From the IMG/VR virus record IMGVR_UViG_3300025887_000009: a stretch of DNA of 61,214 nt. The stretch is one strand, 5' to 3'. How positions within the stretch are numbered: the first letter of the stretch is position 1; each line of letters opens with the position of its first letter. The notes below the pieces were generated by a model. That model was not told the DNA's origin. It did no database searches and saw only the letters and a program-made list of their open reading frames with translations. Made by a program: the position numbers and the translations under genes. Source of the DNA: a virus. Lineage: Duplodnaviria; Heunggongvirae; Uroviricota; Caudoviricetes. Of this stretch, positions 1,187-52,332 are shown one piece after another.

Positions 1187-2539
1187 ATGACCCAGCAAAA
1201 TGAATTACAAAATGCATTAACTATTATCGGCGGCGCAATCGAAAATGCTGCCAAGACAGTTGATGTGAGCACAATAAAACAGCTTGTGAGCACCGGAATC
1301 ACCGACCTCACAAGCAAGAAGACATTGTTAATAAAGGATGATGGAATTTATTCCGATCATGCACACATAAAACTCTTACACGGCGATGTTGGCGTTTTAG
1401 GAGGACTTAGAGTTGCAGGAGACTTAACTGCTCCTCAAATTGACGAAATTAACAATAAGCTAACTGAATTAAAAGTCGATCTCGACGAAGTAAGCCGCCG
1501 TCCGATGGTTGTTCCGGAGATGCTAGATCGCAGCATAAGCGGAAATAAAATCAGTGGCGGACGCATTGTTAAATTCCAAAGTACGGGTATAGTCGACGAA
1601 GCAACAGATTTTGTACTTAATGTTAACAATCACGGCATTACAGTAAAAAATGTTCATGCAGAGAGCTGGGTAGGCGATGCTGAGTTTACAGCAAACGTTC
1701 GTGTTGCTGGAGAATTATATGTTAACTCATTGCACATCAACAAACTTACGTCAGATAACAGATTAGAACGTTCTTCAAGTCTTGATTTTGTATCCGACGA
1801 CAATTCGTCAATTATAGGCAAGGGCCTTCGTTGGAGAGAAAACGACGAACCAAGTAAACAATTTATATTCCGCAATAATGATTCGCGTCTCTGGAGTTCT
1901 GAAGATATTGATCTACAAAAAGATCGAGTGTTTAGAATCAACAATAGAGAAGTGTTGTCAGATTCTGCACTTGGTTCGGGTATTGTAAAATCAAACTTAA
2001 CACAAGTAGGTGCGCTCCAGGGATTAACTGTACACGGTAATATGACTGTAGACGAATTCATGTTTTGGAATTCCGATTCAGGAAGATTAGGTATTGGCAC
2101 AGAAGAACCAAATGCCATGTTAAGTCTTGCAAGCTACGAAGCAGAGTTTATAATTGATGTCGATCAAGAAGAGGTTCGATTTGGTACGTGGACAACAGAT
2201 GATCTACATATTGTAACAGATGATACTGCTCGCATAACAGTTTCAAAATCAGGCACAATTACATTAGGTACAAAAGATAGACCAACAAAAACAGTAGCGT
2301 ACGGTAACTTAAACGTAAACGTAACTAATTCATCAAACGACGTAGACATCGAGACAGCTGGACCGGTTAGGCTTAATGGCAAGAAATTTGAAGTTGGGTC
2401 AGCTGCGCCAAAAGCAGGTGCATATTCACTCGGAGATATTGTATGGAATGATGCACCAAAATCTACTAGTTATATCGGATGGGTCTGTACTCGAACTGGC
2501 ACACCCGGTATGTGGAAACCATTTGGGCAGATAGGATAA
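1187..2539 (+). CDS. Putative virion/tail-fibre-like protein
   Basis: 450 aa, beta-strand rich, RLGIGTEEP fibre-type motif, C-terminal GDIVWN...GWVC..GTPG.WK.FG module; follows late promoter. Confidence 0.55.
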   Translation: MTQQNELQNALTIIGGAIENAAKTVDVSTIKQLVSTGITDLTSKKTLLIKDDGIYSDHAHIKLLHGDVGVLGGLRVAGDLTAPQIDEINNKLTELKVDLDEVSRRPMVVPEMLDRSISGNKISGGRIVKFQSTGIVDEATDFVLNVNNHGITVKNVHAESWVGDAEFTANVRVAGELYVNSLHINKLTSDNRLERSSSLDFVSDDNSSIIGKGLRWRENDEPSKQFIFRNNDSRLWSSEDIDLQKDRVFRINNREVLSDSALGSGIVKSNLTQVGALQGLTVHGNMTVDEFMFWNSDSGRLGIGTEEPNAMLSLASYEAEFIIDVDQEEVRFGTWTTDDLHIVTDDTARITVSKSGTITLGTKDRPTKTVAYGNLNVNVTNSSNDVDIETAGPVRLNGKKFEVGSAAPKAGAYSLGDIVWNDAPKSTSYIGWVCTRTGTPGMWKPFGQIG

Positions 2540-2889
2540 TGCTCGCACTATTAAAAGATCCGCTTTTCTACGTAATTGCAATAAAATTCTTCATCGCAAT
2601 AATGTTCATTGTTGCATTTATTTGTATTTTTTATTATCCAATGTTAATGCACGAATGGATCATTGCATTACTAATCACAAGCGTAACAACTGTAGCCTTT
2701 ATTTTTTGGTGGTGGTTATATACTACTGTCAGAATGACATATGACAAATATGCTAGAATATCAGAAGAATTACAAACTGTGTTTCAATTATTAAAAGAGA
2801 CACAAGAACTTCTTAAATTAAGAGCAGAGGAAGTAACCCATGACCACCATAACGATCTTGGGAAACGGAGAGAGTCGACAACAGATTGA
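2539..2889 (+). CDS. Membrane protein with two TM helices and a coiled-coil tail
   Basis: ATG 2539 overlaps upstream TAA (TAATG); two hydrophobic segments. Confidence 0.6.
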   Translation: MLALLKDPLFYVIAIKFFIAIMFIVAFICIFYYPMLMHEWIIALLITSVTTVAFIFWWWLYTTVRMTYDKYARISEELQTVFQLLKETQELLKLRAEEVTHDHHNDLGKRRESTTD

Positions 2890-3436
2890 TCCTGCCAAAT
2901 TAACAGGAACAATTATCGGGTGTAATGCAATTGTGCGCGATCTTGCAGTCGATCATCTAATTTGCGTAGATCGGAAGATGGTAACAGAAGCATTGGGTTT
3001 TCGGCATCCTTGCATTTACACTAGGGCAGATTGGTCAAATTCTTTCAAAGGCGTAAAAACTGTTCCTAATTTACCTTATTTTGGCACAGAAAGATATGAT
3101 GATCCTTTTCATTGGGGGAGCGGACCATATGCTGTGCTCTTAGGCTGCATATTAGCAGGCACAGTGCACCTGGTCGGATTTGACTTATACAGTACCACCA
3201 AACACATCAACAACGCTTATAAGGGCACTAAAAATTATAACAAAGAAGATCACCGTGCAATAGATCCTAGATACTGGATTGCACAACTAGAACGATTGTT
3301 TACGCATTACAGCAATCACACATTTGTCATTCATCAGCCAGTAGGATGGAAACTCCCAGATAGCTGGAAGAAACCAAATGTTTCACTTGACAACTCGTTG
3401 TTTATTAAGTATAATGAGAGTATTAAGGAGACATAA
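2840..3436 (+). CDS. DUF115/Maf/MptE-like Rossmann-fold protein (possible sugar transferase)
   Basis: ILGNGESR, IGCNA, D.L..VD, SG..A, L.GFD motifs typical of this fold. Confidence 0.5.
   Translation: MTTITILGNGESRQQIDPAKLTGTIIGCNAIVRDLAVDHLICVDRKMVTEALGFRHPCIYTRADWSNSFKGVKTVPNLPYFGTERYDDPFHWGSGPYAVLLGCILAGTVHLVGFDLYSTTKHINNAYKGTKNYNKEDHRAIDPRYWIAQLERLFTHYSNHTFVIHQPVGWKLPDSWKKPNVSLDNSLFIKYNESIKET
3387..3415 (+). promoter_or_regulatory. Sigma70-type promoter for queD
   Basis: TTGACA-17 nt-TATAAT, perfect consensus; AAGGAG SD before ATG 3436. Confidence 0.8.
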
Positions 3437-12200: not shown

Positions 12201-14619
12201 AGGCGTAGCAAGTTTTGATAGTAGCACGTTTACTGCAACAGACGGATGGATTAAGATAACTGACGGTGCTGTAACACTTGCAAAACTTGCAAATCTTGCT
12301 AACAATAGAATGCTAGGTAACATTAGCGGAGTTGCTGCGGCACCATACGGTATTCCGACAACCTCGGGTTCAGGAGCAAGTAGTGTTCTACTTACGCAAG
12401 CAGATGGTTCAATTCGTGTCGAAAGTCTAAGACTAGGAGGCAACAACACATACGAAGTTATGAGCTTGTCAGGCACACAATTAAATATCAAAACACCAGG
12501 GCAAGGCGTTGTGCTTACTGCTAACGGAACTTCTAGACCAATAGTAAACATTCCGGGCAATCTGTCAATGGGCAGTGCAAGCACAACTGAATCTACATTC
12601 CAGGCAGCGTCAACACTTGCTGGAGAAAGCAACATTTCGTCTGACTGGTTATACACTTCATTCATCGAAGCAACTGGGGAACGAAACGCTACTTCAACAG
12701 GTATTGCACTCGGAGCAGGTACAGGCTTTACAGTTGCTGACGAAATTGGATTAATTGCAAATGGTAAGATGCCGTTTAAGATTACCGGAACCGGAGTTGT
12801 TCCTGATCTAACTGCAACATATAATATCGGTACATCTTCTGCTACCTACAATAATGTGTATACCGAAACCATTGCCAATGCTAGTGCTGTAGAGATTGCA
12901 ATTGGTGCTGCGGTGCCATTTATTGCAAATGCATCAGGATTTGTTCCAGACACTGACGCAGCGTATAATATCGGTTCGTCGTCATTTGGATACAATATTG
13001 TGTATACAGGAACTGTGTCTGATGCGTCAGAGGTAAAGATTGCAATCGGTGCAGCATCGCCATTTAAAGTTAGCGCAACAGGCATAATACCAGATGTTGA
13101 TTCGACTTATAATATCGGATCGGCGACGTTTAAATACGGTACTGTATACGCAGACACGTTAGTAGGCGACGGTAGCAATATAACAAACGTTCCGTCAGCT
13201 GGTACTTCTGAAGCAATTTCTACTGTACTAACTGGAACAAATGCTACACATTACCTAACATTTGTTAACAGCAACAACGGAAGTTTAACTTCTGAAACAT
13301 TATATACCGATGCAGGAATTACGTACAATCCAAGTACAAATGATTTAACTACAACTGGTGATATAGTAGCAGCTAGTTTCTCAGGTGATGGTAGTGCATT
13401 AACAAACGTTGCGGCGGCTAGTACCTCCAACGCAATTGCTACTATATCAACTGCAACAAATTCTGCTCACTACCTAACATTTGTTAACAGCAATAACGGA
13501 AGTTTAACTTCTGAATCCTTGTATACTGATGCAGGAATTACGTACAACCCAAGTACAAATGCGTTAACTACAACCGGTAGCATAGTAGCAGCCAGTTTCT
13601 CGGGCATCGGCAGTGCACTAACAAACGTTCCGGCAGTTGCTATTGATACTATAGCAACTGCAACAAATGCTGCACACTACGTAACATTTGTTAACAGCAA
13701 CAATGTCGGTGCAGCAAGCGAAACATTATATACTGATGCAGGAATTACGTACAATCCGAGTACAAATGATCTAACTACAACCGGTGGTATAGTAGCAGCT
13801 AGTTTCTCAGGCGACGGTAGCGGATTAACAAACGTTCCCGGTGCAGGTAGTTCTTCTACAATTGCTACTATTGCAACTGCAACAAACGCTACGCATTATC
13901 TAACATTTGTTAATAGCAATAACGTTACTTCGGCTGCCGAAACATTATATACAGATTCCGGAATTACGTATAATCCAAGCACTAACGCTTTAGTTGTATC
14001 TGGTAACGTAACACCGGATGCAGACAATACCAGATTCATCGGATCTGTGTCTAGAGGATATAATACAATATATACAGGAACTGTTGCAGATTCTACAGAA
14101 GTAGAAATTGCAATTGGCGCAGCTTCGCCGCTCACTGTTACTGCAACCGGTATTGTTCCAGACACAACAGCAACGTATGATATCGGATCAGCGTCATTTG
14201 CTTACAACGTAATTTACGGTACTGCTACATCAGCTAGATATGCTGACTTAGCAGAAAATTATGTTGCAGATGCAGAATACGAACCGGGCACAGTACTAGT
14301 ATTTGGCGGCGAACACGAAGTTACTATTGGTTCAACTAAAGGTGATACAAGAGTTGCCGGTGTTGTCTCAACTAATCCTGCACACCTAATGAACAGTGCA
14401 CAAGAAGGTGACTACGTAGTAGCACTTGCTCTACAAGGACGTGTTCCTACTAAAGTGCTTGGCAAAGTACAGAAAGGTGACTTGCTTGTTACTTCTCCAA
14501 TACCAGGATATGCTTGTGTAGATAACTCAGCTCGTTCAGGCACTGTGATAGGTAAAGCACTAGAAAACAAAACAACCGACGAACGCGGTGTTATTGAAGC
14601 AGTTATAGGAAAAGTATAA
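6259..14619 (+). CDS. Very large virion protein (baseplate/tail fibre) with gp9/gp10-like N-terminus, internal repeats and C-terminal intramolecular-chaperone-like domain
   Basis: 2786 aa; IDIGVEGNDGTGDALRESFRKANENFTELY N-terminus; DAATKNYVD; C-terminal ADLAENY...GTVL..GG...AGVVS.NP...ALQGRVP...GKALE. Confidence 0.75.
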   Translation: MAKQIIDIGVEGNDGTGDALRESFRKANENFTELYAAFGVEGQLTFENLSDTPESFIDNENKVPVVSPTSDSLVFREFVSNGFLTDDIADDTVRFDFTTDGKIVVTTRNSAVIDDKSPAIGGPLNSSSFAIGNVGTTEEDLQNFLTKHSGTFEVQDLVPDIKYVDENFLTRGSPGEQANVRSEPGNISEYTLTISGFSSNDATVADHGLTTASTGAAYTYSSTGTDATNLTSDTVYYVRRQGANAIGLYPTADDAIADTNQIVVSGGSGTQTLVNSEYDSELFGNWLGNEALPRDSVVRRQGDQMAGDFYLNDHPGSLAGTIGAGGLEDYKAATKFYVDQNSYYSPSSIYVSTIGDDTMAGVPLPDHGRSQQSAYASINKACEKAEEIMLASPAEPGPYMQSIRYNESADASFTTSTGIKTIVPGRLPIKTLIDLNKEFMIEEAIAYTSVTYPDFIYNEATWRDNIDFMIKAIVLDTLSGTNANTLSRTAGLRYYSSPAAQRAISEELTQTIAVINKVKVLANDVIQNNTITSLQTGDALITQTIDLGETVDATGISSVAAKFEIIKDIIADGPLLAPEIVDGSVYEIEFSNGGTGNVDQGKPSNTDLLPGKVVRGKASGALGRIVTYSRDTDVGVADSLELVLLEPVEFEVNEELEFGNLVNNSQVTILIESGIYYEDLPIKVPANVSIKGSEFRRVIIRPADRASQSRWANTYFYRDLEFDGLTGGVDSITGIGDPGLPTAGTAYTNPVTNDVDGYFGRHYLYDPTADVNVSNFGATNVGEYNDAAELINRNRAFIIEEVFQYIEATYPTLTYNFTKCRRDVGLILDAIISDLINGGRKNTLRAQGAYFYQGTDLVRGDQADETEDSINYIKTIAADVLANTAFTALGTVDQVIDTDYTISGNAITTFNSLVSLVTYAFDPAYNPPRHNRDLDVFLMNDATVLRNVTVQGQGGFMMVLDPDGQILTKTPYCQTGSSFSQSLNRQAFRGGMLVDAFASNIPITVDSKADAFTLNVSSPAGTGLFVRRPQTPAPFYIDGIRFQVNSITNYDQQSGTCTLLISDSTNDSNGFTGVTSVSATGVDLDSLPVSITLQTAGNRSALANNFTQINDLGYGLICTNGGTSEIVSQFTYYCWSSSYSKNGSEIRSLNSSSAYGEYGLIAEGADPNEIPDSVTLRNNMLQPFKTFESEVTLTLTGVVSVVAGETLTQAVSGATGDVIFDTDANQVYLTNTSGTFDTSNTITGSTSGALGAASVPTIASATAATNTLNGLTLYVYDLDYKPQNRSEIDMIHDSGTIARYEVSNVQLQTDIIVGGIIDPTYTGGTGTGAEFNVKKTVDNGYIVDVVNGGTSYLVSDTITIDGADLGGITSTNDLVITVTTVDAGAITEYTVAGTVATNTDTPNKDGQVYKLNFTTGSAGFSEGGLVEATASNVPGTLRQNGVFVLNDVFDQNTLISNPGAAIVLDSTPTTTYRSIAFAATESTGEDLATDSVLATFDTNYDYVRLIVDSTEAANADPRGGGGTMGNSVGDTIIAVEPLDETAIARINAGDLVFGWDGKLHRIATYTDRTTYATIEFTDVDGSDIINAASSSSGLITSAVQGIQTITLRAGLVSGAEADITANVSTCRATGHDFLNVGTGGFNTSNYPNVLLGLPRDPAQANEVNERNKGRVFYVSTDQDGFFRVGRFFTVDQGTGTVTFAASIALSNLDGIGFKRGVVVAEFSTDTSMGANATDVVPVQSAVRGYVNRRLGFDHNGVAVNNTIGPGVVAADGGELASDLNAASFKITSLGAPSQGSDAATKNYVDQGFVRISAFGDIRNVFEGTWTGDQLLVASGLKRIFVNEVANGPFVPGDVFTTIGGKQGTVVEVETISNDIIYGDAVTLSYVPDLGVIAEEEEITSGSKTANVLAGPFDEITNATVAGDIEASVTRSTGSTSIDLSLVANTIINNDINASAAIAQSKLDLNAATTRANATGISQNDLGVASFDSSTFTATDGWIKITDGAVTLAKLANLANNRMLGNISGVAAAPYGIPTTSGSGASSVLLTQADGSIRVESLRLGGNNTYEVMSLSGTQLNIKTPGQGVVLTANGTSRPIVNIPGNLSMGSASTTESTFQAASTLAGESNISSDWLYTSFIEATGERNATSTGIALGAGTGFTVADEIGLIANGKMPFKITGTGVVPDLTATYNIGTSSATYNNVYTETIANASAVEIAIGAAVPFIANASGFVPDTDAAYNIGSSSFGYNIVYTGTVSDASEVKIAIGAASPFKVSATGIIPDVDSTYNIGSATFKYGTVYADTLVGDGSNITNVPSAGTSEAISTVLTGTNATHYLTFVNSNNGSLTSETLYTDAGITYNPSTNDLTTTGDIVAASFSGDGSALTNVAAASTSNAIATISTATNSAHYLTFVNSNNGSLTSESLYTDAGITYNPSTNALTTTGSIVAASFSGIGSALTNVPAVAIDTIATATNAAHYVTFVNSNNVGAASETLYTDAGITYNPSTNDLTTTGGIVAASFSGDGSGLTNVPGAGSSSTIATIATATNATHYLTFVNSNNVTSAAETLYTDSGITYNPSTNALVVSGNVTPDADNTRFIGSVSRGYNTIYTGTVADSTEVEIAIGAASPLTVTATGIVPDTTATYDIGSASFAYNVIYGTATSARYADLAENYVADAEYEPGTVLVFGGEHEVTIGSTKGDTRVAGVVSTNPAHLMNSAQEGDYVVALALQGRVPTKVLGKVQKGDLLVTSPIPGYACVDNSARSGTVIGKALENKTTDERGVIEAVIGKV
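13165..13990 (+). repeat. Four tandem intragenic repeats of about 69-73 codons
   Basis: HY(L/V)TFVNSNN...E(T/S)LYTD(A/S)GITYNPSTN occurs four times with high nucleotide identity (near 13250, 13470, 13675, 13895). Confidence 0.9.
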
Positions 14620-22218: not shown

Positions 22219-23129
22219 AAGAACTTTGGGTAGAAAAATACCGTCCGAATACAGTTGAAGGATATGTGTTTCGTGACGAAGCACAAAAGAAGCAGATTAA
22301 GACTTGGATCAAAGACGGTAGCATTCCGCATTTGTTACTAAGTGGCAATGCAGGCATTGGCAAGACAACACTTGCAAAGCTATTGTTCAACGAATTAGAT
22401 ATTAATCCGTTTGATATCTTAGAGATCAACGCATCGCGTACTAACTCAGTAGACGATGTTCGCGATAAGATTGTGAATTTCGTACAAATGATTCCATTTG
22501 GTGAATTTAAAGTAGTATTGCTCGACGAGGCAGATTATTTGTCACCTAACGCACAAGCTGCTTTGCGTGGAGTAATGGAAGAATACCACAGCACTGCTAG
22601 ATTTGTGCTAACCTGCAACTATCCTAACAAAATTATTCCAGCAATTCATTCTCGGTGTCAAGGTTTTCATATTGCTAAAGTAGATCAAACTGAGTTCACA
22701 GCACGAGTGGCAGAGATTCTTATAACCGAAGGTGTTAAACTCGAGCTTGATGTTCTTGATACATACGTTAGAGCAACATATCCAGACTTGCGCAAATGTA
22801 TCAACATGGTACAAATGAATTCAGTTGACGGTAATCTTGTTGCGCCAGGAGAAGGTGACAACGGTGACCAAGACTGGATGCTTGCTATGGTTGAATTATT
22901 TAAGGATAGAAAGATTAAAGAAGCCCGTAAGTTGCTATGTGGCAAAGTGCGTCCAGAAGAAATGGAAACAGTTTATCGCTGGCTGTATGATAATATTGAA
23001 ATTTTCGGCGATGATGATAATCAAGATAAAGCTGTGCTTGCTATCAAGCAAGGCATGGTCGATCACACACTTGTAGTCGATCCAGAAATCAATCTTGCAG
23101 CAGTATTAATCAAACTAGGGAGATTATAA
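22215..23129 (+). CDS. Clamp loader AAA+ subunit (RFC small subunit/T4 gp44-like)
   Basis: LWVEKYRP, G.AGIGKTT, INAS, LLDEAD, SRC motifs. Confidence 0.92.
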   Translation: MKELWVEKYRPNTVEGYVFRDEAQKKQIKTWIKDGSIPHLLLSGNAGIGKTTLAKLLFNELDINPFDILEINASRTNSVDDVRDKIVNFVQMIPFGEFKVVLLDEADYLSPNAQAALRGVMEEYHSTARFVLTCNYPNKIIPAIHSRCQGFHIAKVDQTEFTARVAEILITEGVKLELDVLDTYVRATYPDLRKCINMVQMNSVDGNLVAPGEGDNGDQDWMLAMVELFKDRKIKEARKLLCGKVRPEEMETVYRWLYDNIEIFGDDDNQDKAVLAIKQGMVDHTLVVDPEINLAAVLIKLGRL

Positions 23130-23404
23130 TGAGTAGAGTTTGGAAAAAGTTTTTAACGAGTGTATTTAAAACAATAGGCAAGGGTCTATTAATATTTGTA
23201 GTATACGCAGTTATTTGCACAGCGCTTGGTTTTGTGTTGCATCTTCTCGGAATGCCAATGGAACCGATCATTACAATTAGCACTCTGGCTCCTTTGATTT
23301 TAGTATTTATAGGGTATCTACTGTACGAAACATATCAGAGTGCCAAGAGTGAAGTAGAATACGAAAATCAAAAATTAATTCGTAATATAAAAACAGGATA
23401 TTAA
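23129..23404 (+). CDS. Small two-TM membrane protein
   Basis: Hydrophobic segments; resembles next ORF. Confidence 0.65.
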   Translation: MSRVWKKFLTSVFKTIGKGLLIFVVYAVICTALGFVLHLLGMPMEPIITISTLAPLILVFIGYLLYETYQSAKSEVEYENQKLIRNIKTGY

Positions 23405-23405
23405 A

Positions 23406-23729
23406 ATGCGTACCCGAATCTGGAAACGAGTTATGACAATAGCGTGGAATGAGGTAAAGACGCCTCTTCTAACAACACTAAGGACAGGATTTATATTCCT
23501 GTATTATATAGCGTTAGTTGCATTACAAATATACTTTTTTGATAAAGTGATAGATATACGTCAATATCATGATGTATTTTTGCTTGCGGCTATTGTATTC
23601 ATTCTTTCTAGTCCCGTAGTGTTAGCTTTTGTTGCTATAGAGATTAGGGAATGGTACAAACAAGCTGTAAAAGAAATCAAAGAAGAAAACAAAATACTTT
23701 CCGATCAATTAACAAAGGATTATAAATGA
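23406..23729 (+). CDS. Small two-TM membrane protein
   Basis: Hydrophobic segments; R.WK N-terminus and Y..A..E...EN C-terminus shared with previous ORF. Confidence 0.65.
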   Translation: MRTRIWKRVMTIAWNEVKTPLLTTLRTGFIFLYYIALVALQIYFFDKVIDIRQYHDVFLLAAIVFILSSPVVLAFVAIEIREWYKQAVKEIKEENKILSDQLTKDYK

Positions 23730-24223
23730 TTCGAGCAATACTAGCATGTGACGAACATTGGGGCATAGGCAAAGATAACACTTTGCCGTGGCCGCATAAT
23801 CCTGCAGATTTAAAATGGTTTAAAGAATCCACCGACAACAGTGTTGTTATAATGGGCCGGCACACTTGGGAAAGCTTGCCAAAGAGACCGTTGCCTAATC
23901 GCATCAACTATGTGATTGCGTCTAATCCTGATATTTCTCCAGGATATTATGGGAGATTCTCCGTAGCAAATCCGAACAAACTCGGAAAAGCAATTACAGC
24001 TATAATACAAGATCGACATATTACACAGTCGGACATATGGATTATTGGTGGATCACAGCTGGTTAATAGTTGCCTTAGTATAATCGACGAGATTTGGCTT
24101 AGTCGAATCTCAGGCACATACAGTTGCGACACGTTCCTTCCTCGCACTGCAATCGAACTAACTTTTAGATTAGACAGCACCGAAGACATAAATGGATTGT
24201 GTATAGAAAAATGGAAAAAATAG
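23726..24223 (+). CDS. folA: Dihydrofolate reductase
   Basis: GIGKDNTLPW, DLKWFK, VIMGRHTWESL, PLPNR, IIGG, CDTF. Confidence 0.95.
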   Translation: MIRAILACDEHWGIGKDNTLPWPHNPADLKWFKESTDNSVVIMGRHTWESLPKRPLPNRINYVIASNPDISPGYYGRFSVANPNKLGKAITAIIQDRHITQSDIWIIGGSQLVNSCLSIIDEIWLSRISGTYSCDTFLPRTAIELTFRLDSTEDINGLCIEKWKK

Positions 24224-24450
24224 ATTATATTAAACGATTTGCGTACTTACCGACGCGGTTAGATTCCGGTTGGATATGGCTCAAAACTTATTGGATTAAA
24301 GCAATACATTTTGACCCGCCATTACGGATGCACAATCCGGTTGGATATTCTTATTATGTCGGAGGAAGATACTACCGGCTATCTCAATACGAAAGAGAAA
24401 AAGACGAAACAATATATCTACTAACTAATCAAATAGACAAGAAGAATTAA
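24211..24450 (+). CDS. Accessory hypothetical protein (slot allele A)
   Basis: ATG 24211 overlaps DHFR end; KRFAYLP...IWLKTYW. Confidence 0.6.
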   Translation: MEKIDYIKRFAYLPTRLDSGWIWLKTYWIKAIHFDPPLRMHNPVGYSYYVGGRYYRLSQYEREKDETIYLLTNQIDKKN

Positions 24451-24512
24451 TAAAAGAATATTTAAACGCACTAGAATATATTAAAGAAAACGGACTTCAT
24501 ATAGAAAAATGG
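24450..24512 (+). repeat. Chimeric junction: copy of thyA 5' end fused to a DHFR-like 3' end
   Basis: 24453-24478 identical to 24787-24812 (thyA, ATG replaced by ATA); TATAGAAAAATGG at 24500-24512 identical to 24202-24214 of the DHFR gene. Confidence 0.85.
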
Positions 24513-24787
24513 CCAAGGATACAATAGTTATTAAAAAGTTTTCATTGGAAAAGAACAATGGCTGGTTTCGTGAAACCATTGCTCAAAAAAAATATGCTTG
24601 GCTGCCACGGATTATTTCTAATAAACGTATATGGAGAGAATACTATTTTAAAGTAACTTCGTCGTTTGAACCAATTAATCTTAGCGAGCCCGGAATGGTT
24701 CACAACGAATATGAATTTTATACTGAAAAAGAGTTTACACTATATTTATTAAGAGAGCAAGCAGGAATTAAAAAGGACCCACTATGA
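24509..24787 (+). CDS. Accessory hypothetical protein (slot allele B, distant paralogue of 24211 ORF)
   Basis: KKYAWLP...IWREYY and LYLL motifs resemble the 24211 ORF; ATGA overlap with thyA. Confidence 0.6.
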   Translation: MAKDTIVIKKFSLEKNNGWFRETIAQKKYAWLPRIISNKRIWREYYFKVTSSFEPINLSEPGMVHNEYEFYTEKEFTLYLLREQAGIKKDPL

Positions 24788-25650
24788 AAGAATATTTAAA
24801 CGCACTAGAATACATTCTAGAAAACGGCAAGGATCGCGGAGACAGGACCGGCGTAGGAACGCGCGGAGTGTTCGGTTACCAGATGCGATTTAATTTGCGC
24901 AAAGAATTCCCCGCAGTAACTACAAAGAAGCTAGCATGGAAATCTGTTGTTAGCGAACTATTGTGGATGCTCGAAGGGTCAACCGACGAACGCAGACTAG
25001 CTGAAATACATTACGGCAAGCCTCGTGAAGAACTCATAGGCAAGACTACAATATGGACTGCAAACGCAGACAACCAAGGCGCTGCACTCGGACACACTAA
25101 CACAGACATAGAAAAAGATCTCGGACCAGTATACGGTGGTCAATGGCGTTCTTGGGATGCAAAGTTAGGTTATGTAGATCAAATTTCACAAGTACTTGAA
25201 AGCTTGCATTACGATCCCGAAGGACGCAGGCATGTTGTAAGTGCATGGAATGCAGATGTTATTAACATTATGGCGTTACCGCCGTGTCACTGTTTGTTTC
25301 AATTTCATGTACAAGACGGTGAATTAAGCTGCCAGTTGTACCAGCGCTCAGCAGATATGTTTCTCGGCGTGCCATTTAATATTGCATCATATAGCCTACT
25401 TACACACATGATTGCACAGTTGCTTGAACTTAAAGTAGGTGACTTTATTTGGACAGGTGGGGATTGTCACATCTATCAGAATCACATGGATCAAGTTAAG
25501 GAACAAATTACTCGCACGCCTATGCCAGGTCCGCATTTGCTTATGCCTGCATTTAATAATCTAAAAGAGATTGCAAAGACTGTACCAAGTGATTATAAAT
25601 TAATCAACTATGATCCAATGGATAGTATTAAAGCACCGATGGCAGTGTGA
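24784..25650 (+). CDS. thyA: Thymidylate synthase
   Basis: DRTGVGT, TTKK, ELLW, LGPVYG.QWR, MALPPCH, YQRSAD.FLGVPFN, GDCHIY.NH. Confidence 0.97.
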   Translation: MKEYLNALEYILENGKDRGDRTGVGTRGVFGYQMRFNLRKEFPAVTTKKLAWKSVVSELLWMLEGSTDERRLAEIHYGKPREELIGKTTIWTANADNQGAALGHTNTDIEKDLGPVYGGQWRSWDAKLGYVDQISQVLESLHYDPEGRRHVVSAWNADVINIMALPPCHCLFQFHVQDGELSCQLYQRSADMFLGVPFNIASYSLLTHMIAQLLELKVGDFIWTGGDCHIYQNHMDQVKEQITRTPMPGPHLLMPAFNNLKEIAKTVPSDYKLINYDPMDSIKAPMAV

Positions 25651-25669
25651 GGGGAATTGACCCCTCACA
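25646..25669. terminator. Hairpin between convergent thyA and phoH
   Basis: TGTGAGGGG-aattga-CCCCTCACA perfect 9-bp stem. Confidence 0.7.
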
Positions 25670-25676
25670 ATAATAG

Positions 25677-26408
25677 TTAGTCACCGTAAAGTTCTAGGAC
25701 TTCTTTTACAGCTTCGTGACGTTCAATGTCACAGCCTTGGAACTGCACTACAGTAATACGATTAGATGGCTTGTTATTGATTTTCTTAATGAAATCTAAC
25801 AAGCCATTATCACTTTGCCTGTCCGCTTGTGCAAGGTCGCCTGTTACTGCCATCTCGGAACCTTGTCCGATTCTAGTTAGCAACATCTTCATTTGACTAG
25901 GCGTAGCGTTTTGCATCTCGTCTGCAATAATGTAAGAATCTTTAAAAGTGCGTCCGCGCATATAAGCTAATGGCGCAATTTCGAGAACTCCTTCTGCTAA
26001 CATACCTTCTAGCTCTCTTGCTGTAAAGTATTCGCGTAGAACATCAAAGATCGGACGCGTCCACGGAGCCATTTTTTCTTCCAGTGTTCCTGGTAAAAAT
26101 CCTAGGTCCTCGTCTACACTGCAAGCTGGTCGTGTTACAATGATCTTATCAACGTCGCCGTCTTTGAACTTCTTGATAGCCACTAGTACAGCTAACATGG
26201 TTTTACCCGTGCCTGCTGGTCCTATTCCAAATGTAATGTTGGTTTGTGGATCAAGGAGTTGAAATACATAATTTTCTTGATTAACTCCTCTTGGGATAAT
26301 TTTGACTTCTTTTTTCTTTTTTTCGAAGTCTATATTTACTACGTTTAGGTACCTTTCGTTTTTGTTACTGTTGTTGTTTCCGCGATTGGTTTTCCTTTTA
26401 GCACCCAT
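25677..26408 (-). CDS. phoH: PhoH-like ATPase
   Basis: GPAGTGKT, LGFLPG, PLAYMRGRTF, DEMQN, LTRIG, GDLAQ.D, RH motifs; AAGGAGG SD. Confidence 0.95.
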   Translation of the reverse strand: MGAKRKTNRGNNNSNKNERYLNVVNIDFEKKKKEVKIIPRGVNQENYVFQLLDPQTNITFGIGPAGTGKTMLAVLVAIKKFKDGDVDKIIVTRPACSVDEDLGFLPGTLEEKMAPWTRPIFDVLREYFTARELEGMLAEGVLEIAPLAYMRGRTFKDSYIIADEMQNATPSQMKMLLTRIGQGSEMAVTGDLAQADRQSDNGLLDFIKKINNKPSNRITVVQFQGCDIERHEAVKEVLELYGD

Positions 26409-48323: not shown

Positions 48324-48635
48324 ATGAAAGAATATTTTAATTTTAACGGTGTTGCAAAGCGCCAGGAGTATTGGGCAGTAATGTTGCTATCCATTTTCGC
48401 AATTATTATAGCAATGATTGCAATGCTTGACCCGATCGGTATGATAATTGCAGTGGCTCTTCTAATAGCTACTGTTTGGATTGGATTAGCAACTACTGTT
48501 CGTAGGTTGCGAGATGCAGGACTTAACACTTGGTGGATTTTGGCAATCTTTGTTCCGTATGTAGGGATTATTGCAACGATTGTATTTGGGGTTGTTGCAA
48601 CTGCTACCGAACCTACGGTTCCCAATGTTAGCTGA
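48324..48635 (+). CDS. DUF805 (YhaH-like) inner-membrane protein
   Basis: FNFNG.A.RQEYW and VRRLRDAG...WW motifs. Confidence 0.8.
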   Translation: MKEYFNFNGVAKRQEYWAVMLLSIFAIIIAMIAMLDPIGMIIAVALLIATVWIGLATTVRRLRDAGLNTWWILAIFVPYVGIIATIVFGVVATATEPTVPNVS

Positions 48636-49008
48636 TGCACAAAAAGAGGGCAGGGCACCTTGGACAGAGTTAGTTGTTGAAACACAACACTACAATGTCT
48701 ACAAGGATATCTATCCTGTTACCAAAGGACACCTGTTGTTTATTCCTAAAGAAGAAACATGGGACTGTCTTGCTTGGTGTTACAAAGCTGCATACAATTG
48801 GGGATACGGGTGGGTTAAAGAAGAATACTGTGATGCATTTAACGTCGGACAGAATGTAGGCGAAGCAGCCGGACAGACTGTAATGTATCCACATGTACAC
48901 CTTATCCCAAGACGCACCGGAGACATGGACGATCCAAGAGGTGGCGTACGACATGTTATTCCCGAAAAGGGAAATTACAAGAAAGATTCAAATGCCGAGA
49001 TTGGTTAA
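48625..49008 (+). CDS. HIT family nucleotide hydrolase
   Basis: D.YPVTKGHLLFIPK, N.G.N.GEAAGQTV.YPHVHLIPRR.GD. Confidence 0.9.
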   Translation: MLADAQKEGRAPWTELVVETQHYNVYKDIYPVTKGHLLFIPKEETWDCLAWCYKAAYNWGYGWVKEEYCDAFNVGQNVGEAAGQTVMYPHVHLIPRRTGDMDDPRGGVRHVIPEKGNYKKDSNAEIG

Positions 49009-49728: not shown

Positions 49729-50415
49729 ATGGATACAAGTAAAACAATAAAAGACAGGATCGAAGCAGCAGGCGCGAGATATTGGGCCGGTGACAACATT
49801 TCTGAATTTATTCAAGAAGGTGAGAAGCAAAAGCTCATCGACGAACTTACAACAAAATTCGAAGACGTATTAGATTCGCTTGTAATTGACAGGCACAATG
49901 ATCCTAATTCAATAGACACTGGTAGACGTCTTGCTAAAATGTATATCAAAGAAATTATGAGCGGACGTTATGACAAGATTCCTAACGCAACTGCATTTCC
50001 AAATGATCCTAAAGACGGCTACGACGGTATGTTAGTAGTTCGCTCTGAACTTAAATCTATGTGCTCACATCATCACCAGCCTGTATCGGGCGTAGCTTAC
50101 ATTGGCATTATTGCTGCCAGCAAGCTGATTGGTTTAAGTAAGTACACCCGTATTGCACAGTGGTGTGCAAGACGCGGCACATTACAGGAAGAACTTGCTG
50201 TAGACATTGCCAGAGAAATCGAAAAGGCTACTGATTCGAAAAATATCGGTGTGTACATACAAGCTACACACGGTTGTTGCGAAAATCGTGGCATTATGGC
50301 ACATTCAAGTCTTACACAGACTACCGTGTTAAAAGGTGCGTTTAACGACGATCCTGCCACAAAGCAAGAATTCTTTGAAAATATTAAACTACAACAGGAG
50401 TTTGCACCGCGATGA
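49729..50415 (+). CDS. folE: GTP cyclohydrolase I
   Basis: T..RLAKMY, SMCSHH, IGLSKY.R, RR..LQE, HGC...RG. Confidence 0.95.
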   Translation: MDTSKTIKDRIEAAGARYWAGDNISEFIQEGEKQKLIDELTTKFEDVLDSLVIDRHNDPNSIDTGRRLAKMYIKEIMSGRYDKIPNATAFPNDPKDGYDGMLVVRSELKSMCSHHHQPVSGVAYIGIIAASKLIGLSKYTRIAQWCARRGTLQEELAVDIAREIEKATDSKNIGVYIQATHGCCENRGIMAHSSLTQTTVLKGAFNDDPATKQEFFENIKLQQEFAPR

Positions 50416-50705
50416 AATGGCTTAAAAGAAAAGCAAGACGAATGATAGAACAACTGTTGTACGACGTTGACGAAACTGATTCGAAAAAGTCGCACTCTTT
50501 AAACAGCGGCGTTGAAGGGAAGTACTTACATGCAGACCCTGTACTAAATTTTAAGATTTACAAAGCAAACAACGGACAGATATTAGAATTTAGAAGTTAC
50601 GATTCGCATAATGACAGGACAGATTCTGCTACGTATATAATCAACACAGACGAAGACGTTGCAGAAAAAGTAGCAAAATGTCTTACTAGGGAACTAATGA
50701 GATGA
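50412..50705 (+). CDS. Hypothetical protein
   Basis: ATGA-coupled to folE; F.IYKANNG.I.E. Confidence 0.7.
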   Translation: MKWLKRKARRMIEQLLYDVDETDSKKSHSLNSGVEGKYLHADPVLNFKIYKANNGQILEFRSYDSHNDRTDSATYIINTDEDVAEKVAKCLTRELMR

Positions 50706-51313
50706 AAAAGAGATTAGTTGCATTTGGTTGCGGAAATACATACGGCCACGGATTGGTTGACTGCATTACTGAGGACTGGAGGGCCGGACCGGTTCCTAGT
50801 AAGAATGCATGGCCTTCATTATTAGCATCTAAGCTAGATTTAATTTGCGTAAATGCCGGAATACCCGGTGCAAGTGTTAAAGAAATTTGGCATAAGATAA
50901 TCTATTTTGATTTTGAAGAAGACGATACTGTTATTATAATGTGGCCAGATAGAAGTAGATGGTGTATTTTTAAAGATAACAATGAAATATTTCAAATCAG
51001 TAATCAGTTATCTAACAAGGTATCTAAAACGTTTTATAGCTATTTAAATAATCCAAATGATCGATTAATTGAACTAAACTTATATATGTCGCATGTTCAT
51101 TTACTGTTAACGCAGAAGAATGTTAAGAACTATCATTTAAACTTTAGTTTTTTTAATTTTGTACAAGAGAGTTATAATGATTCAGAAGTTATCAAACTAT
51201 CGATAGAAGAACTTAAAAATCAATATCCGCTAGCAAAAGATAAAATACACCCCGGTGCCCTAGCACATGAAGCATTTGCTACTCAATTACACATTATACT
51301 GGATACAAAATGA
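50702..51313 (+). CDS. SGNH/GDSL hydrolase-like protein (block I Ser replaced by Gly)
   Basis: LVAFGCGNTYG, WP.LLA, N.GIPG.S, DKIHPG..AH. Confidence 0.6.
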   Translation: MKKRLVAFGCGNTYGHGLVDCITEDWRAGPVPSKNAWPSLLASKLDLICVNAGIPGASVKEIWHKIIYFDFEEDDTVIIMWPDRSRWCIFKDNNEIFQISNQLSNKVSKTFYSYLNNPNDRLIELNLYMSHVHLLLTQKNVKNYHLNFSFFNFVQESYNDSEVIKLSIEELKNQYPLAKDKIHPGALAHEAFATQLHIILDTK

Positions 51314-51699
51314 AAAATTTATTATCATATTCTGAATGGAAAGAAATCCATTCAGAAAACACTAAGTTTGAAGAAATAGAAGCAACAATTAAAAAATTAA
51401 ATTTCAAAGGTTATACAAGTTCGCTTGCGTGGAAAGATAAAACCGGCAAAGAATTGCTAGTAGAAACAAAGGTAATTGATCAACTATCTGACTTGCATAC
51501 TTATGATTTTTCTAATTGCTATCTTTATGCGCTCAATTTCATAGAATATACATATTATCATACACCTGAGGGCACTAATGCTTGGGATTATGATTTTATC
51601 GAATTGTCTAAATTTAATAAAGATATTCGTTACTCATATCGAATAAGATTTGCCGGATTAGAAAAGAAAAGGAACAAGTATGAAACTGCGTTACAGTGA
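51310..51699 (+). CDS. AT-rich hypothetical protein
   Basis: ATGA-coupled; 129 aa. Confidence 0.55.
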   Translation: MKNLLSYSEWKEIHSENTKFEEIEATIKKLNFKGYTSSLAWKDKTGKELLVETKVIDQLSDLHTYDFSNCYLYALNFIEYTYYHTPEGTNAWDYDFIELSKFNKDIRYSYRIRFAGLEKKRNKYETALQ

Positions 51700-51775
51700 A
51701 GCGTTTTACAGCGCACAAGGCGAAGACGTTGCAGAAAAAGTAGCAAAATGTCTTACTAGGGAATTAATGAGATGA
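51680..51775 (+). other. Chimeric 31-codon mini-ORF: QueE N-terminus fused in frame to the C-terminus of ORF 50412
   Basis: MKLRYSEAFYSAQGE-DVAEKVAKCLTRELMR*; 51667-51725 matches 52338-52396 (4 mismatches); 51721-51775 matches 50651-50705 (1 mismatch). Confidence 0.9.
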
Positions 51776-52332
51776 TCATAAGCAGAGTGTCGCCTAAGAT
51801 CATTAATACTTTTGCAAAACCGAAAAATTCAGATAGCAATGGAAAGTACGGAAATGCAATACAGAATTTATACGATTCTGCAGGGATCACAACTAGTCAA
51901 GGTTCTGGCAATGACATACCAGAGTTGCATTTAGAGATCAAATCTAGAGATCCTGTAAAAAATTGCCATATCAGCGTAGGATCATATAAACTTATCGATG
52001 TCGTTAATTCTAATGGAAAGTGCATGTTAAAGAAGATGCAGAAATGGAATTTACACAATCACACCGGCGGTGTAGTTACTAGCACTATCTATATAGATTT
52101 TACCACAATTCATAATGAACTTATAGTAGAGTTTGACGATCTAGCTAACCAACTGCGCAATGATCCATTAACAAAATGGACGTTAGCAAAGACTAATAAT
52201 TTCATAATCGAACGAGCTTCAGATGACGATGATGAATTAATAAAGCTAAGAATTAAATCATCTAAATTAAATGGATTAATACATCGATCCAAAACTGTAA
52301 ATCAGTTCAACAATTTATTTACGGAATGCTAA
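51772..52332 (+). CDS. Putative PD-(D/E)xK nuclease-like accessory protein
   Basis: G..G..I...Y and NDIPELHLEIKSR (D...ExK) pattern; AT-rich. Confidence 0.4.
   Translation: MIISRVSPKIINTFAKPKNSDSNGKYGNAIQNLYDSAGITTSQGSGNDIPELHLEIKSRDPVKNCHISVGSYKLIDVVNSNGKCMLKKMQKWNLHNHTGGVVTSTIYIDFTTIHNELIVEFDDLANQLRNDPLTKWTLAKTNNFIIERASDDDDELIKLRIKSSKLNGLIHRSKTVNQFNNLFTEC

What the first reader, a model, noticed from the sequence alone, without database searches (positions are those of the whole stretch)
24191..24830. Second junction with the same architecture between DHFR and thyA
Seen: the layout is [DHFR end]-ORF A (24211-24450)-[thyA start fused to DHFR-like end]-ORF B (24509-24787)-[thyA]. The spacer reads in one frame as (I)KEYLNALEYIKENG-LHIEKW. 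That is the ThyA N-terminus (MKEYLNALEYILENG; 26 bp identical, ATG changed to ATA) joined at the NG codons to a DHFR-like C-terminus (NGLCIEKW; TATAGAAAAATGG identical, and it supplies the ATG of ORF B just as the real DHFR end supplies that of ORF A). ORFs A and B are highly diverged paralogues (KRFAYLP..IWLKTYW versus KKYAWLP..IWREYY) while the flanking copies remain close. Inference: this is an older event of the same kind as at queE. Two cases in 61 kb suggest a recurring mechanism, and both fusions being in frame suggests selection for translational continuity.
Basis: partly seen in the sequence, partly recalled or inferred. Interest (0 to 1): 0.8.

Follow-up and report, generated by a model that had tools for sequence, protein, structure and literature searches.

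The report
Two gene alleles stacked by recombination
In this uncultured jumbo phage, two small genes that are alternative occupants of one slot in a related phage population sit side by side with a 60-base scar made of the neighbours' ends between them, likely because a mis-aimed crossover between relatives joined both versions; it is a clean, traceable case of ordinary phage gene gain.

Summary
The spacer is a copy of the thyA start joined at a 5-6 base match to a DHFR end. It is not an assembly error: contigs from two other studies span it. In a related seawater population the slot is a clean bubble, DHFR-A-thyA (depth 9.6) or DHFR-B-thyA (25.5), with no scar. At queE, two runs hold X-E-queE without C-D. 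So A and B are alternative alleles and the window carries both. The likely cause is one illegitimate join plus one homologous crossover between relatives, as in homology-facilitated illegitimate recombination. The scar halves differ from the real genes mostly at silent sites (7 of 11 counted), so they diverged as alleles, and 'older event' does not follow. Selection for in-frame fusion is unproven: 42-60% of microhomologies between neighbouring gene ends are in frame anyway, and this scar has lost its ATG. Scars are rare in relatives: one probable and one one-sided case in 2.7 Mb. The scan reported allele stacking once before on other DNA (e1-185640). Verdict: new member of a known kind.

The parts
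23726..24223 (+). Dihydrofolate reductase; upstream flank gene and likely homologous anchor. Its last codons supply the ATG of ORF A.
   Evidence: Pfam PF00186 E 1.4e-32; sequence
24190..24214 (+). Real DHFR 3' end, the counterpart of the scar's right half
   Evidence: 25-nt repeat, 80%; 13-nt core occurs twice in the window
24211..24450 (+). ORF A (79 aa), one allele of the slot; small FAWxP..IWL..Y family of unknown function
   Evidence: DHFR-A-thyA unitig in X14, depth 9.6; family profile; 89% variant P0001 on 3 contigs
24450..24493 (+). Scar, left half: the thyA start that belonged to the A allele; ATG now ATA
   Evidence: 91% to 24784-24827; codon comparison
24488..24493 (+). Join at a 5-6 nt microhomology (N-G codons of both genes)
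   Evidence: three-way comparison; the L040 DHFR end matches 23 of 24 nt across it
24488..24524 (+). Scar, right half: the DHFR end that belonged to the B allele, with its stop codon and the start region of B
   Evidence: joint 24215 to 24514 in X14 places a DHFR end in the same register before B
24509..24787 (+). ORF B (92 aa), the other allele; same family as A; predicted beta-meander plus C-terminal helix
   Evidence: DHFR-B-thyA unitig in X14, depth 25.5; variant P0004 on 62 contigs; model pLDDT 75.9; no clear fold match
24784..25650 (+). Thymidylate synthase thyA; downstream flank gene
   Evidence: Pfam PF00303 E 6e-99
50412..50705 (+). ORF X, upstream flank of the second slot
   Evidence: abuts queE in several relatives
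50702..51699 (+). ORFs C and D, upstream occupant of the queE slot
   Evidence: absent from the X-E-queE contigs of X14 and X17; covered in X8
51667..51775 (+). Second scar: queE start joined to X end at a 5-nt match (7 of 8); 31-codon mini-ORF with intact ATG, stop overlapping the start of E
51772..52332 (+). ORF E (186 aa), downstream occupant; predicted MutH/Sau3AI-like endonuclease fold
   Evidence: single-occupant form in X14 and X17; Atlas features 0.93, TM 0.69-0.72; no Pfam or PHROG family
   Evidence: conserved after folE in relatives

Best explanation
The spacer is the scar of allele stacking: A and B are alternative single occupants of the DHFR-thyA slot in a related population, and the window's genome likely arose when a DHFR-A-thyA genome and a DHFR-B-thyA genome recombined once out of register and once normally. 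Shown: the scar's anatomy, its presence in other samples, and the two single forms. Inferred: during co-infection a DNA end lying about 44 nt into thyA, paired through the shared DHFR gene, annealed at a 5-6 nt match about 25 nt before the end of the other genome's DHFR, and replication or an ordinary crossover downstream completed the product. Ends deeper in thyA would pair normally and simply swap alleles, which would explain why the left half is short. Joins near the end of the anchor keep the stop codon and start region of the resident gene, which would explain the right half. Short, already diverged repeats would collapse slowly, so the stack persists. The queE scar is the same accident at another slot; there the predicted nuclease E may have made the break (speculative). 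The frame is probably a by-product of codon-matched microhomology.
For: Bubble in X14: a unitig ends at 24176 (depth 31.1), then either 24147-24479 (A, 9.59) or 24147-24215 joined to 24514-24812 (B, 25.5), then thyA from 24784 (38.1). All overlaps are 30 nt and the depths add up. The B unitig is unbroken, so no scar path enters it. The bubble opens at 24177, upstream of the part of DHFR held in the scar, so the B form has its own DHFR haplotype (inferred from record ends). X-E-queE is a single contig in X14 and X17, skipping 1070 nt. Silent-site excess: 7 of 11 counted codon changes against about 19% expected, P 0.001-0.02. The scar's DHFR half is 23 of 24 nt identical to the DHFR end of relative L040. 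A probable third case is L104, whose scar half resembles the alleles of L108 and L122, where the slot is empty. 4 of 5 related records encode a RecA-family protein. One-sided repair at microhomologies is described for T4 (PMC2988022, passages).
Against: No parent close enough to be the true donor was found: X14 is about 90-95% identical, and its X end differs from the queE scar at 6 or more listed sites, while the window's own X differs at 2. Only one run (X14) shows the thyA bubble, from contigs and not reads, and its letters were not seen. The C-D-only form was not demonstrated: X8 stops at 51712. A circle route or duplication followed by replacement gives the same sequence. Classical HFIR deletes resident DNA, and in E. 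coli 56 of 60 such clones were duplications from circles (PMC3240628, passages). Two scars in 61 kb against about 1 in 2.7 Mb of relatives (P about 0.004 before allowing for selection of the window) is more than a uniform accident rate predicts.
Confidence: 0.62

Rival explanations
1. A small circle (DHFR end - gene - thyA start, about 330 nt), closed at the microhomology in one phage, integrated by a single crossover into a relative that carried the other allele.
For: It gives the same final sequence. In E. coli, ligated circles plus single crossover gave duplications about ten times more often than HFIR (PMC3240628, passages). Mini-circles are proposed for T4-type PeSL cassettes (PMC2839356, passages).
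Against: It needs homologous integration through arms of only 25-58 nt. No 'goes back' joint is among the joints listed for the eight run-layings (2 joints were not shown, and contigs drop rare forms). L104 looks like an insertion into an empty slot with a foreign left half.
Confidence: 0.14
2. A microhomology tandem duplication of one unit (A-A or B-B) came first, and one copy was then replaced by the other allele through ordinary recombination.
For: At queE the scar's X half is closer to the window's own X (97%) than to the relative's X.
Against: It needs two steps and replacement through a 25-nt arm. An identical duplicate of 300 nt should collapse quickly (inference). The thyA scar halves look like alleles, not copies.
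Confidence: 0.1
3. A dedicated or selected process: joins are made or kept because an in-frame mini-ORF relays ribosomes from one gene to the next.
For: In 4 of 4 cases seen (thyA, queE, L104, L337) the frame opened at the copied start ends at or just past the next gene's start, and 3 of 4 keep the ATG. In the queE scar 4 of 5 changes are silent. There are two scars in one 61-kb window.
Against: The in-frame null is 0.46-0.60, so 3 of 3 assessable joins give p of about 0.1. The thyA scar has lost its ATG and no other start precedes B. The two scars share no motif. Silent-site excess is expected from allele divergence alone.
Confidence: 0.09
4. Simple tandem duplication followed by decay and divergence in place, with single forms elsewhere arising only by collapse of the stack.
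For: A and B are homologous, and collapse through either repeat would give exactly the two single forms.
Against: 27% protein identity between A and B cannot coexist with 80-91% non-coding flanks. C-D and E show no similarity. The X14 bubble opens outside the repeated part.
Confidence: 0.04
5. Assembly chimera of two strain alleles.
For: The two alleles form a bubble in a related population.
Against: The scar copies differ from the real genes and join at a 5-6 nt match, far below a 31-mer. Contigs of X8 (study P6) and X6 (P4) span the join.
Confidence: 0.01

Closest known systems
Homology-facilitated illegitimate recombination (PMC3240628, passages; de Vries and Wackernagel 2002 and Prudhomme 2002 seen only as citations)
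   Same: Homologous recombination on one side and an illegitimate join on the other bring in a non-homologous gene.
   Different: Described for bacterial DNA uptake, and usually with deletion of resident DNA. Here nothing resident is lost, 25-58 nt are duplicated, and the partners are phage genomes.
[quoted passage not shown] 1999 seen only as a citation)
   Same: Phage recombination with homology on one side only, and junctions at microhomology.
   Different: No intron here. B is not a nuclease, and the source of the break is unknown.
Vibrio T6SS effector-immunity arrays built by sequential displacement (PMC5361080, passages)
   Same: Alternative modules of one locus end up stacked, with remnants of gene ends; HFIR is the proposed cause, and plain replacement is more common.
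   Different: There the stack has a clear benefit (orphan immunity). Here both occupants stay whole and their function is unknown.
PeSL cassettes of T4-type phages (PMC2839356, passages)
   Same: Small ORFans are gained and lost at fixed slots through short homologies of about 50 nt.
   Different: PeSLs are reusable promoter-stem-loop repeats. Here the repeats are the coding ends of core genes and differ at each slot.
Merodiploids by unequal crossing-over in Streptococcus pneumoniae (PMC3784515, abstract only)
   Same: Unequal crossover keeps two alleles of a locus in tandem.
   Different: It uses IS repeats and spans 100-900 kb; here a 5-6 nt match and about 300 nt.

Membership tests
Homology-facilitated illegitimate recombination | Homologous anchor on one side | tested here: met
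   Both single forms share DHFR upstream and thyA downstream
Homology-facilitated illegitimate recombination | Other junction without extended homology (short match or none) | tested here: met
   5-6 nt at thyA, 5 nt (7 of 8) at queE
Homology-facilitated illegitimate recombination | Resident DNA deleted at the illegitimate join | tested here: not met
   Flank ends are duplicated and the resident gene is kept. It works like HFIR but is not filed as the classical product.
Homology-facilitated illegitimate recombination | Linear donor end and dependence on a RecA-type recombinase | not testable with these tools
   4 of 5 related records encode a RecA-family protein; the rest of the window's genome is not held
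Tandem stacking by unequal crossover between alleles | Two different occupants, each between a copy of the same left and right flank | tested here: met
Tandem stacking by unequal crossover between alleles | Each occupant also exists alone in the slot | tested here: met
   A and B in X14; E in X14 and X17; C-D alone not shown
PeSL-type regulatory cassettes | Reusable intergenic promoter and stem-loop repeat flanking each ORFan | tested here: not met
   The repeats are coding gene ends, unrelated between the two slots. Promoter-like sites 12 against 9.5 +/- 3.3 by chance, and no terminator-like site in the scar.
Integron or other site-specific cassette system | Shared recombination site at every cassette boundary | tested here: not met
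   No sequence shared between the two scars in the self-comparison
Integron or other site-specific cassette system | Cognate integrase | not tested
   Only part of the window's ORFs were scanned against families
Free-standing homing endonuclease insertion | Inserted gene encodes an endonuclease (thyA slot: A, B) | tested here: inconclusive
   No Pfam family, only PHROGs of unknown function; best fold Z 5.8, no nuclease among the top rows. At 79-92 aa a nuclease is unlikely.
Free-standing homing endonuclease insertion | Inserted gene encodes an endonuclease (queE slot: E) | tested here: inconclusive
   MutH/Sau3AI-like by features and predicted structure; no HMM family; cleavage untested

The most novel reading that the evidence does not exclude
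Jumbo phages grow operons by stacking slot alleles, and the scars that survive are those whose chimeric mini-ORF relays ribosomes into the displaced gene. This lineage does it at a raised rate, possibly driven by slot-borne MutH-like nucleases that cut rival alleles in the first codons of the next core gene.
Probability: 0.15. Interest if true: 0.65.

Novelty: new member of a known kind. Interest (0 to 1): 0.34.

Why it matters
Illegitimate recombination is the usual explanation for phage mosaic gene gain, but the junction and both parental forms are rarely seen together. Here the scar, the two single alleles in a natural population and the stacked product are all traceable, twice in one genome segment. 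The start::end scar is a searchable signature. It would allow counting how often large phages add rather than swap accessory genes, and testing with a proper null whether translational coupling filters the survivors. The mechanism itself is not new.

Tried and rejected
Looking for the same scar or close parents in public collections gave nothing: exact pattern in viral contigs 0; A, B and E variants in viral contigs none; B in GTDB genomes none; the DHFR scan of metagenomes reached at most 59% identity. The protein search for A returned 1 hit among 1 candidate. The Atlas gave no usable hit for A. The fold search of B gave no match at E below 0.001; its best Z was 5.8, with Pur-alpha/PC4-like rows at 5.0-5.5, which is only a common arrangement and a weak lead. 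The profile search of the A/B family was still queued and gave no result. The first recall test was faulty, because equal spacer lengths were excluded by my own filter; it was repeated. Candidate L271 was rejected: an 11-nt half and doubtful ORF calls, not examined further. The missing cover of E in X8 is not used, because the queE start is uncovered too. Run X13 held only short unrelated matches. Promoter and terminator scans were at chance level. The 5'-copy insertions in L034 and the thyA 3' remnant in L040 are endonuclease-type insertions of another architecture and were not counted. Eight paper searches listed no paper describing start::end scars with both parental alleles in a phage. The library lacks most subscription papers and no supplements were read, so this is weak evidence of novelty.

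Full report
Setting. The window is part of an uncultured jumbo phage. Its clamp loader is 54% identical to that of PA5oct/MIJ3/Paride-type phages and 47% to Atu_ph07. The three related IMG/VR records rated at least 90% complete are 330-382 kb long, and the window's own proteins occur on a contig of up to 208,784 nt. The best-holding runs are freshwater metagenomes, plus one marine run. No whole genome is held.

Observation. The layout is as described. The thyA-start copy is 44 nt at 91%, and the DHFR-end copy is 25 nt at 80%. The 26-nt and 13-nt cores occur twice each, against 0.00 in 100 shuffles. The spacer frame runs 25 codons from ATA to a TAG inside the start of B. A and B are 27% identical. 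The queE scar has halves of 59 nt (93%) and 58 nt (97%). Outside the repeats of one long protein, these were the only close repeats in the window. It is not an assembly error: X8, from another study, spans 23291-25405 in one contig with 44 differences, and X6 spans the join with none. X1 spans it too but may be the source of the window.

What the relatives show. Of 80 thyA loci, 76 also hold DHFR; in 54 of the 76 the two genes abut, and 22 hold other genes between them. The loci are redundant, so these are not independent counts. The A/B family (37 distinct proteins) occurs in 44 of the 80 loci, in all 44 downstream of thyA and never upstream. In the window the thyA-phoH gap is 26 nt and empty, so this lineage has the family on the other side of thyA; how it moved is not explained. 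The key result is run X14, a population 90-95% identical to the window. Its contigs form a bubble with exact 30-nt overlaps: DHFR (depth 31.1), then A (9.59) or B (25.5), then thyA (38.1). The B path is one unbroken unitig, so no scar path joins it. At the second slot, X14 and X17 each hold one contig X-E-queE that skips 1070 nt, that is C, D and the scar. These two runs are of the same year and habitat and may be one campaign. Protein clusters agree: the B and E variants lie on 62 and 56 contigs, the A variant on 3. A C-D-only form was not shown.

Direction. Collapse of a stack through either repeat would also give single forms, so the bubble alone does not give the order of events. Three points favour single alleles first. 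A join of a downstream gene's start to an upstream gene's end needs two copies of the unit, and A and B are far more diverged than the non-coding scar. The X14 bubble opens at 24177, upstream of the DHFR part held in the scar. The record ends imply that the working thyA of X14 has the scar's letter at codon 10. The last two points are inferred from coordinates; I did not see the letters.

Scar halves are alleles. Codon by codon the raw count is 8 silent and 7 replacement changes. I dropped the junction codon (1 silent) and the three DHFR-tail codons that overlap the N-termini of A and B (3 replacements), which leaves 7 of 11 silent. About 15-22% is expected for random changes, giving P 0.0014-0.022 for assumed rates of 0.19-0.30. 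The scar's DHFR half matches the DHFR end of L040 at 23 of 24 nt, better than it matches the window's own DHFR. The only clearly post-event change is ATG to ATA. The lower identity at this scar therefore does not show that it is older than the queE scar. Against a distant donor: the X half of the queE scar is closer to the window's own X than to that of X14, so the true parents were closer relatives than X14.

Frame. Over 1,043 neighbouring gene pairs from the window and nine related records, exact matches between a gene's first 120 nt and its upstream neighbour's last 120 nt are in frame in 42% (4 nt or more), 46% (5), 50% (6), 57% (7) and 60% (8) of cases. Two of two in frame then has p of about 0.2-0.25. 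This scar has no start codon left. In L104 the frame is fused to the X-end copy, but the identity of its left half is uncertain. In L337 a 14-codon copy of an epimerase-like gene's start lies between two 41% identical paralogues. Three of three assessable joins give p of about 0.1, which is suggestive only. Any join upstream of the resident gene's stop-start region keeps that region whatever the frame, and this may be the real filter (inference).

How common. A detector that finds both window scars recovered planted scars in 73 of 80 trials (45+25 nt arms, 10% change), 39 of 80 (20%), 80 of 80 (58+58 nt, 5%) and 16 of 80 (45+45 nt, 30%). In 1,943,373 nt from nine related records it gave one candidate (L271), which I rejected. 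In 762,800 nt from ten more records it gave L104 again, from a record chosen because it holds L104, and the one-sided L337. The records were scanned in 20-kb pieces, so scars across piece borders are missed, and some record ends were not fetched. Two scars in 61 kb is high against this background (P about 0.004 with a generous rate), but the window was picked for the pattern out of a very large scan. A lineage-specific rate, or one hybridisation episode that made both scars, stays open.

Mechanism. Shown: anatomy, reality and the single forms. Inferred: one illegitimate join guided by the homologous upstream gene, plus one ordinary crossover, between co-infecting relatives. One-sided repair with junctions at microhomology is described for T4 (PMC2988022, passages), and T4 recombination is said to need only patches under 50 bp (PMC2839356, passage citing Singer 1982). 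Mosaic blocks with one homeologous and one illegitimate border are discussed for lambdoid phages (PMC2327257, passages). HFIR was proposed for stacked T6SS modules (PMC5361080, passages). 4 of 5 related records encode a RecA-family protein. The circle route cannot be excluded, and it was the commoner source of duplications in an E. coli assay (PMC3240628, passages). ORF E is predicted to have a MutH/Sau3AI-like nuclease fold and could have cut the rival queE allele; this is speculation. B has no such sign.

Function of A and B. They belong to a small phage family without a Pfam match; 27 of 35 aligned members hit phrog_7749, of unknown function. The model of B is a beta-meander with a C-terminal helix, with no clear fold relative. 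My best guess, at low confidence, is an accessory protein tied to the thyA neighbourhood that binds nucleic acid or a host partner and is under diversifying pressure. Both alleles persist in freshwater and seawater lineages at 89-90% protein identity, which fits long-term balancing, but this is untested.

Verdict. My reading was written down before I consulted the scan's notes. Interest 0.34.

Noticed in passing
window 51772-52332: ORF E is predicted to be a MutH/Sau3AI-like PD-(D/E)xK endonuclease of a phage-only cluster, sitting as a slot allele before queE.
   Followed up: partly
L104:2046-2111 (G011): Probable third scar: an 89-aa gene inserted after gene X, followed by a mini-ORF ending in a 52-nt copy of the X end; L108, L122 and L133 have the slot empty.
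   Followed up: partly
L337, minus strand, 1767-1807 counted on the reverse complement (G016): A 41-nt copy of an epimerase-like gene's start forms a 14-codon mini-ORF between two 41% identical paralogues and stops at the second one's start.
   Followed up: partly
L034:483-1241 and 2130-3086: Two insertions absent from L033 and L050, each a truncated copy of the next gene's start followed by a 223-aa or 257-aa gene (the second matches PHROG endonucleases) and a new copy of the start; the ferredoxin-like gene after the second looks broken.
   Followed up: partly
L040:4867-5773: A free-standing GIY-YIG gene follows thyA, whose 3' end appears replaced, with an old thyA 3' remnant left behind it, before an A orthologue.
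   Followed up: partly
window 24211-24787 and 25650-25677: The A/B family lies downstream of thyA in 44 of 44 related loci that have it, but upstream in this lineage, where the downstream slot is empty. Unexplained.
   Followed up: partly
window 23129-23729: Two tandem, weakly paralogous membrane-protein-like ORFs precede DHFR (23% identity). Run X14 skips 222 nt (23429-23650) of the second in frame.
   Followed up: no
window 12780-14210: Two families of internal repeats (about 73 and 48 codons) in the 2786-aa protein.
   Followed up: no
window 48628-48978: A HIT-family-like reading frame (51% to L104's gene; family name from my recall) that my ORF list missed; it may be interrupted or overlap its neighbours.
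   Followed up: no
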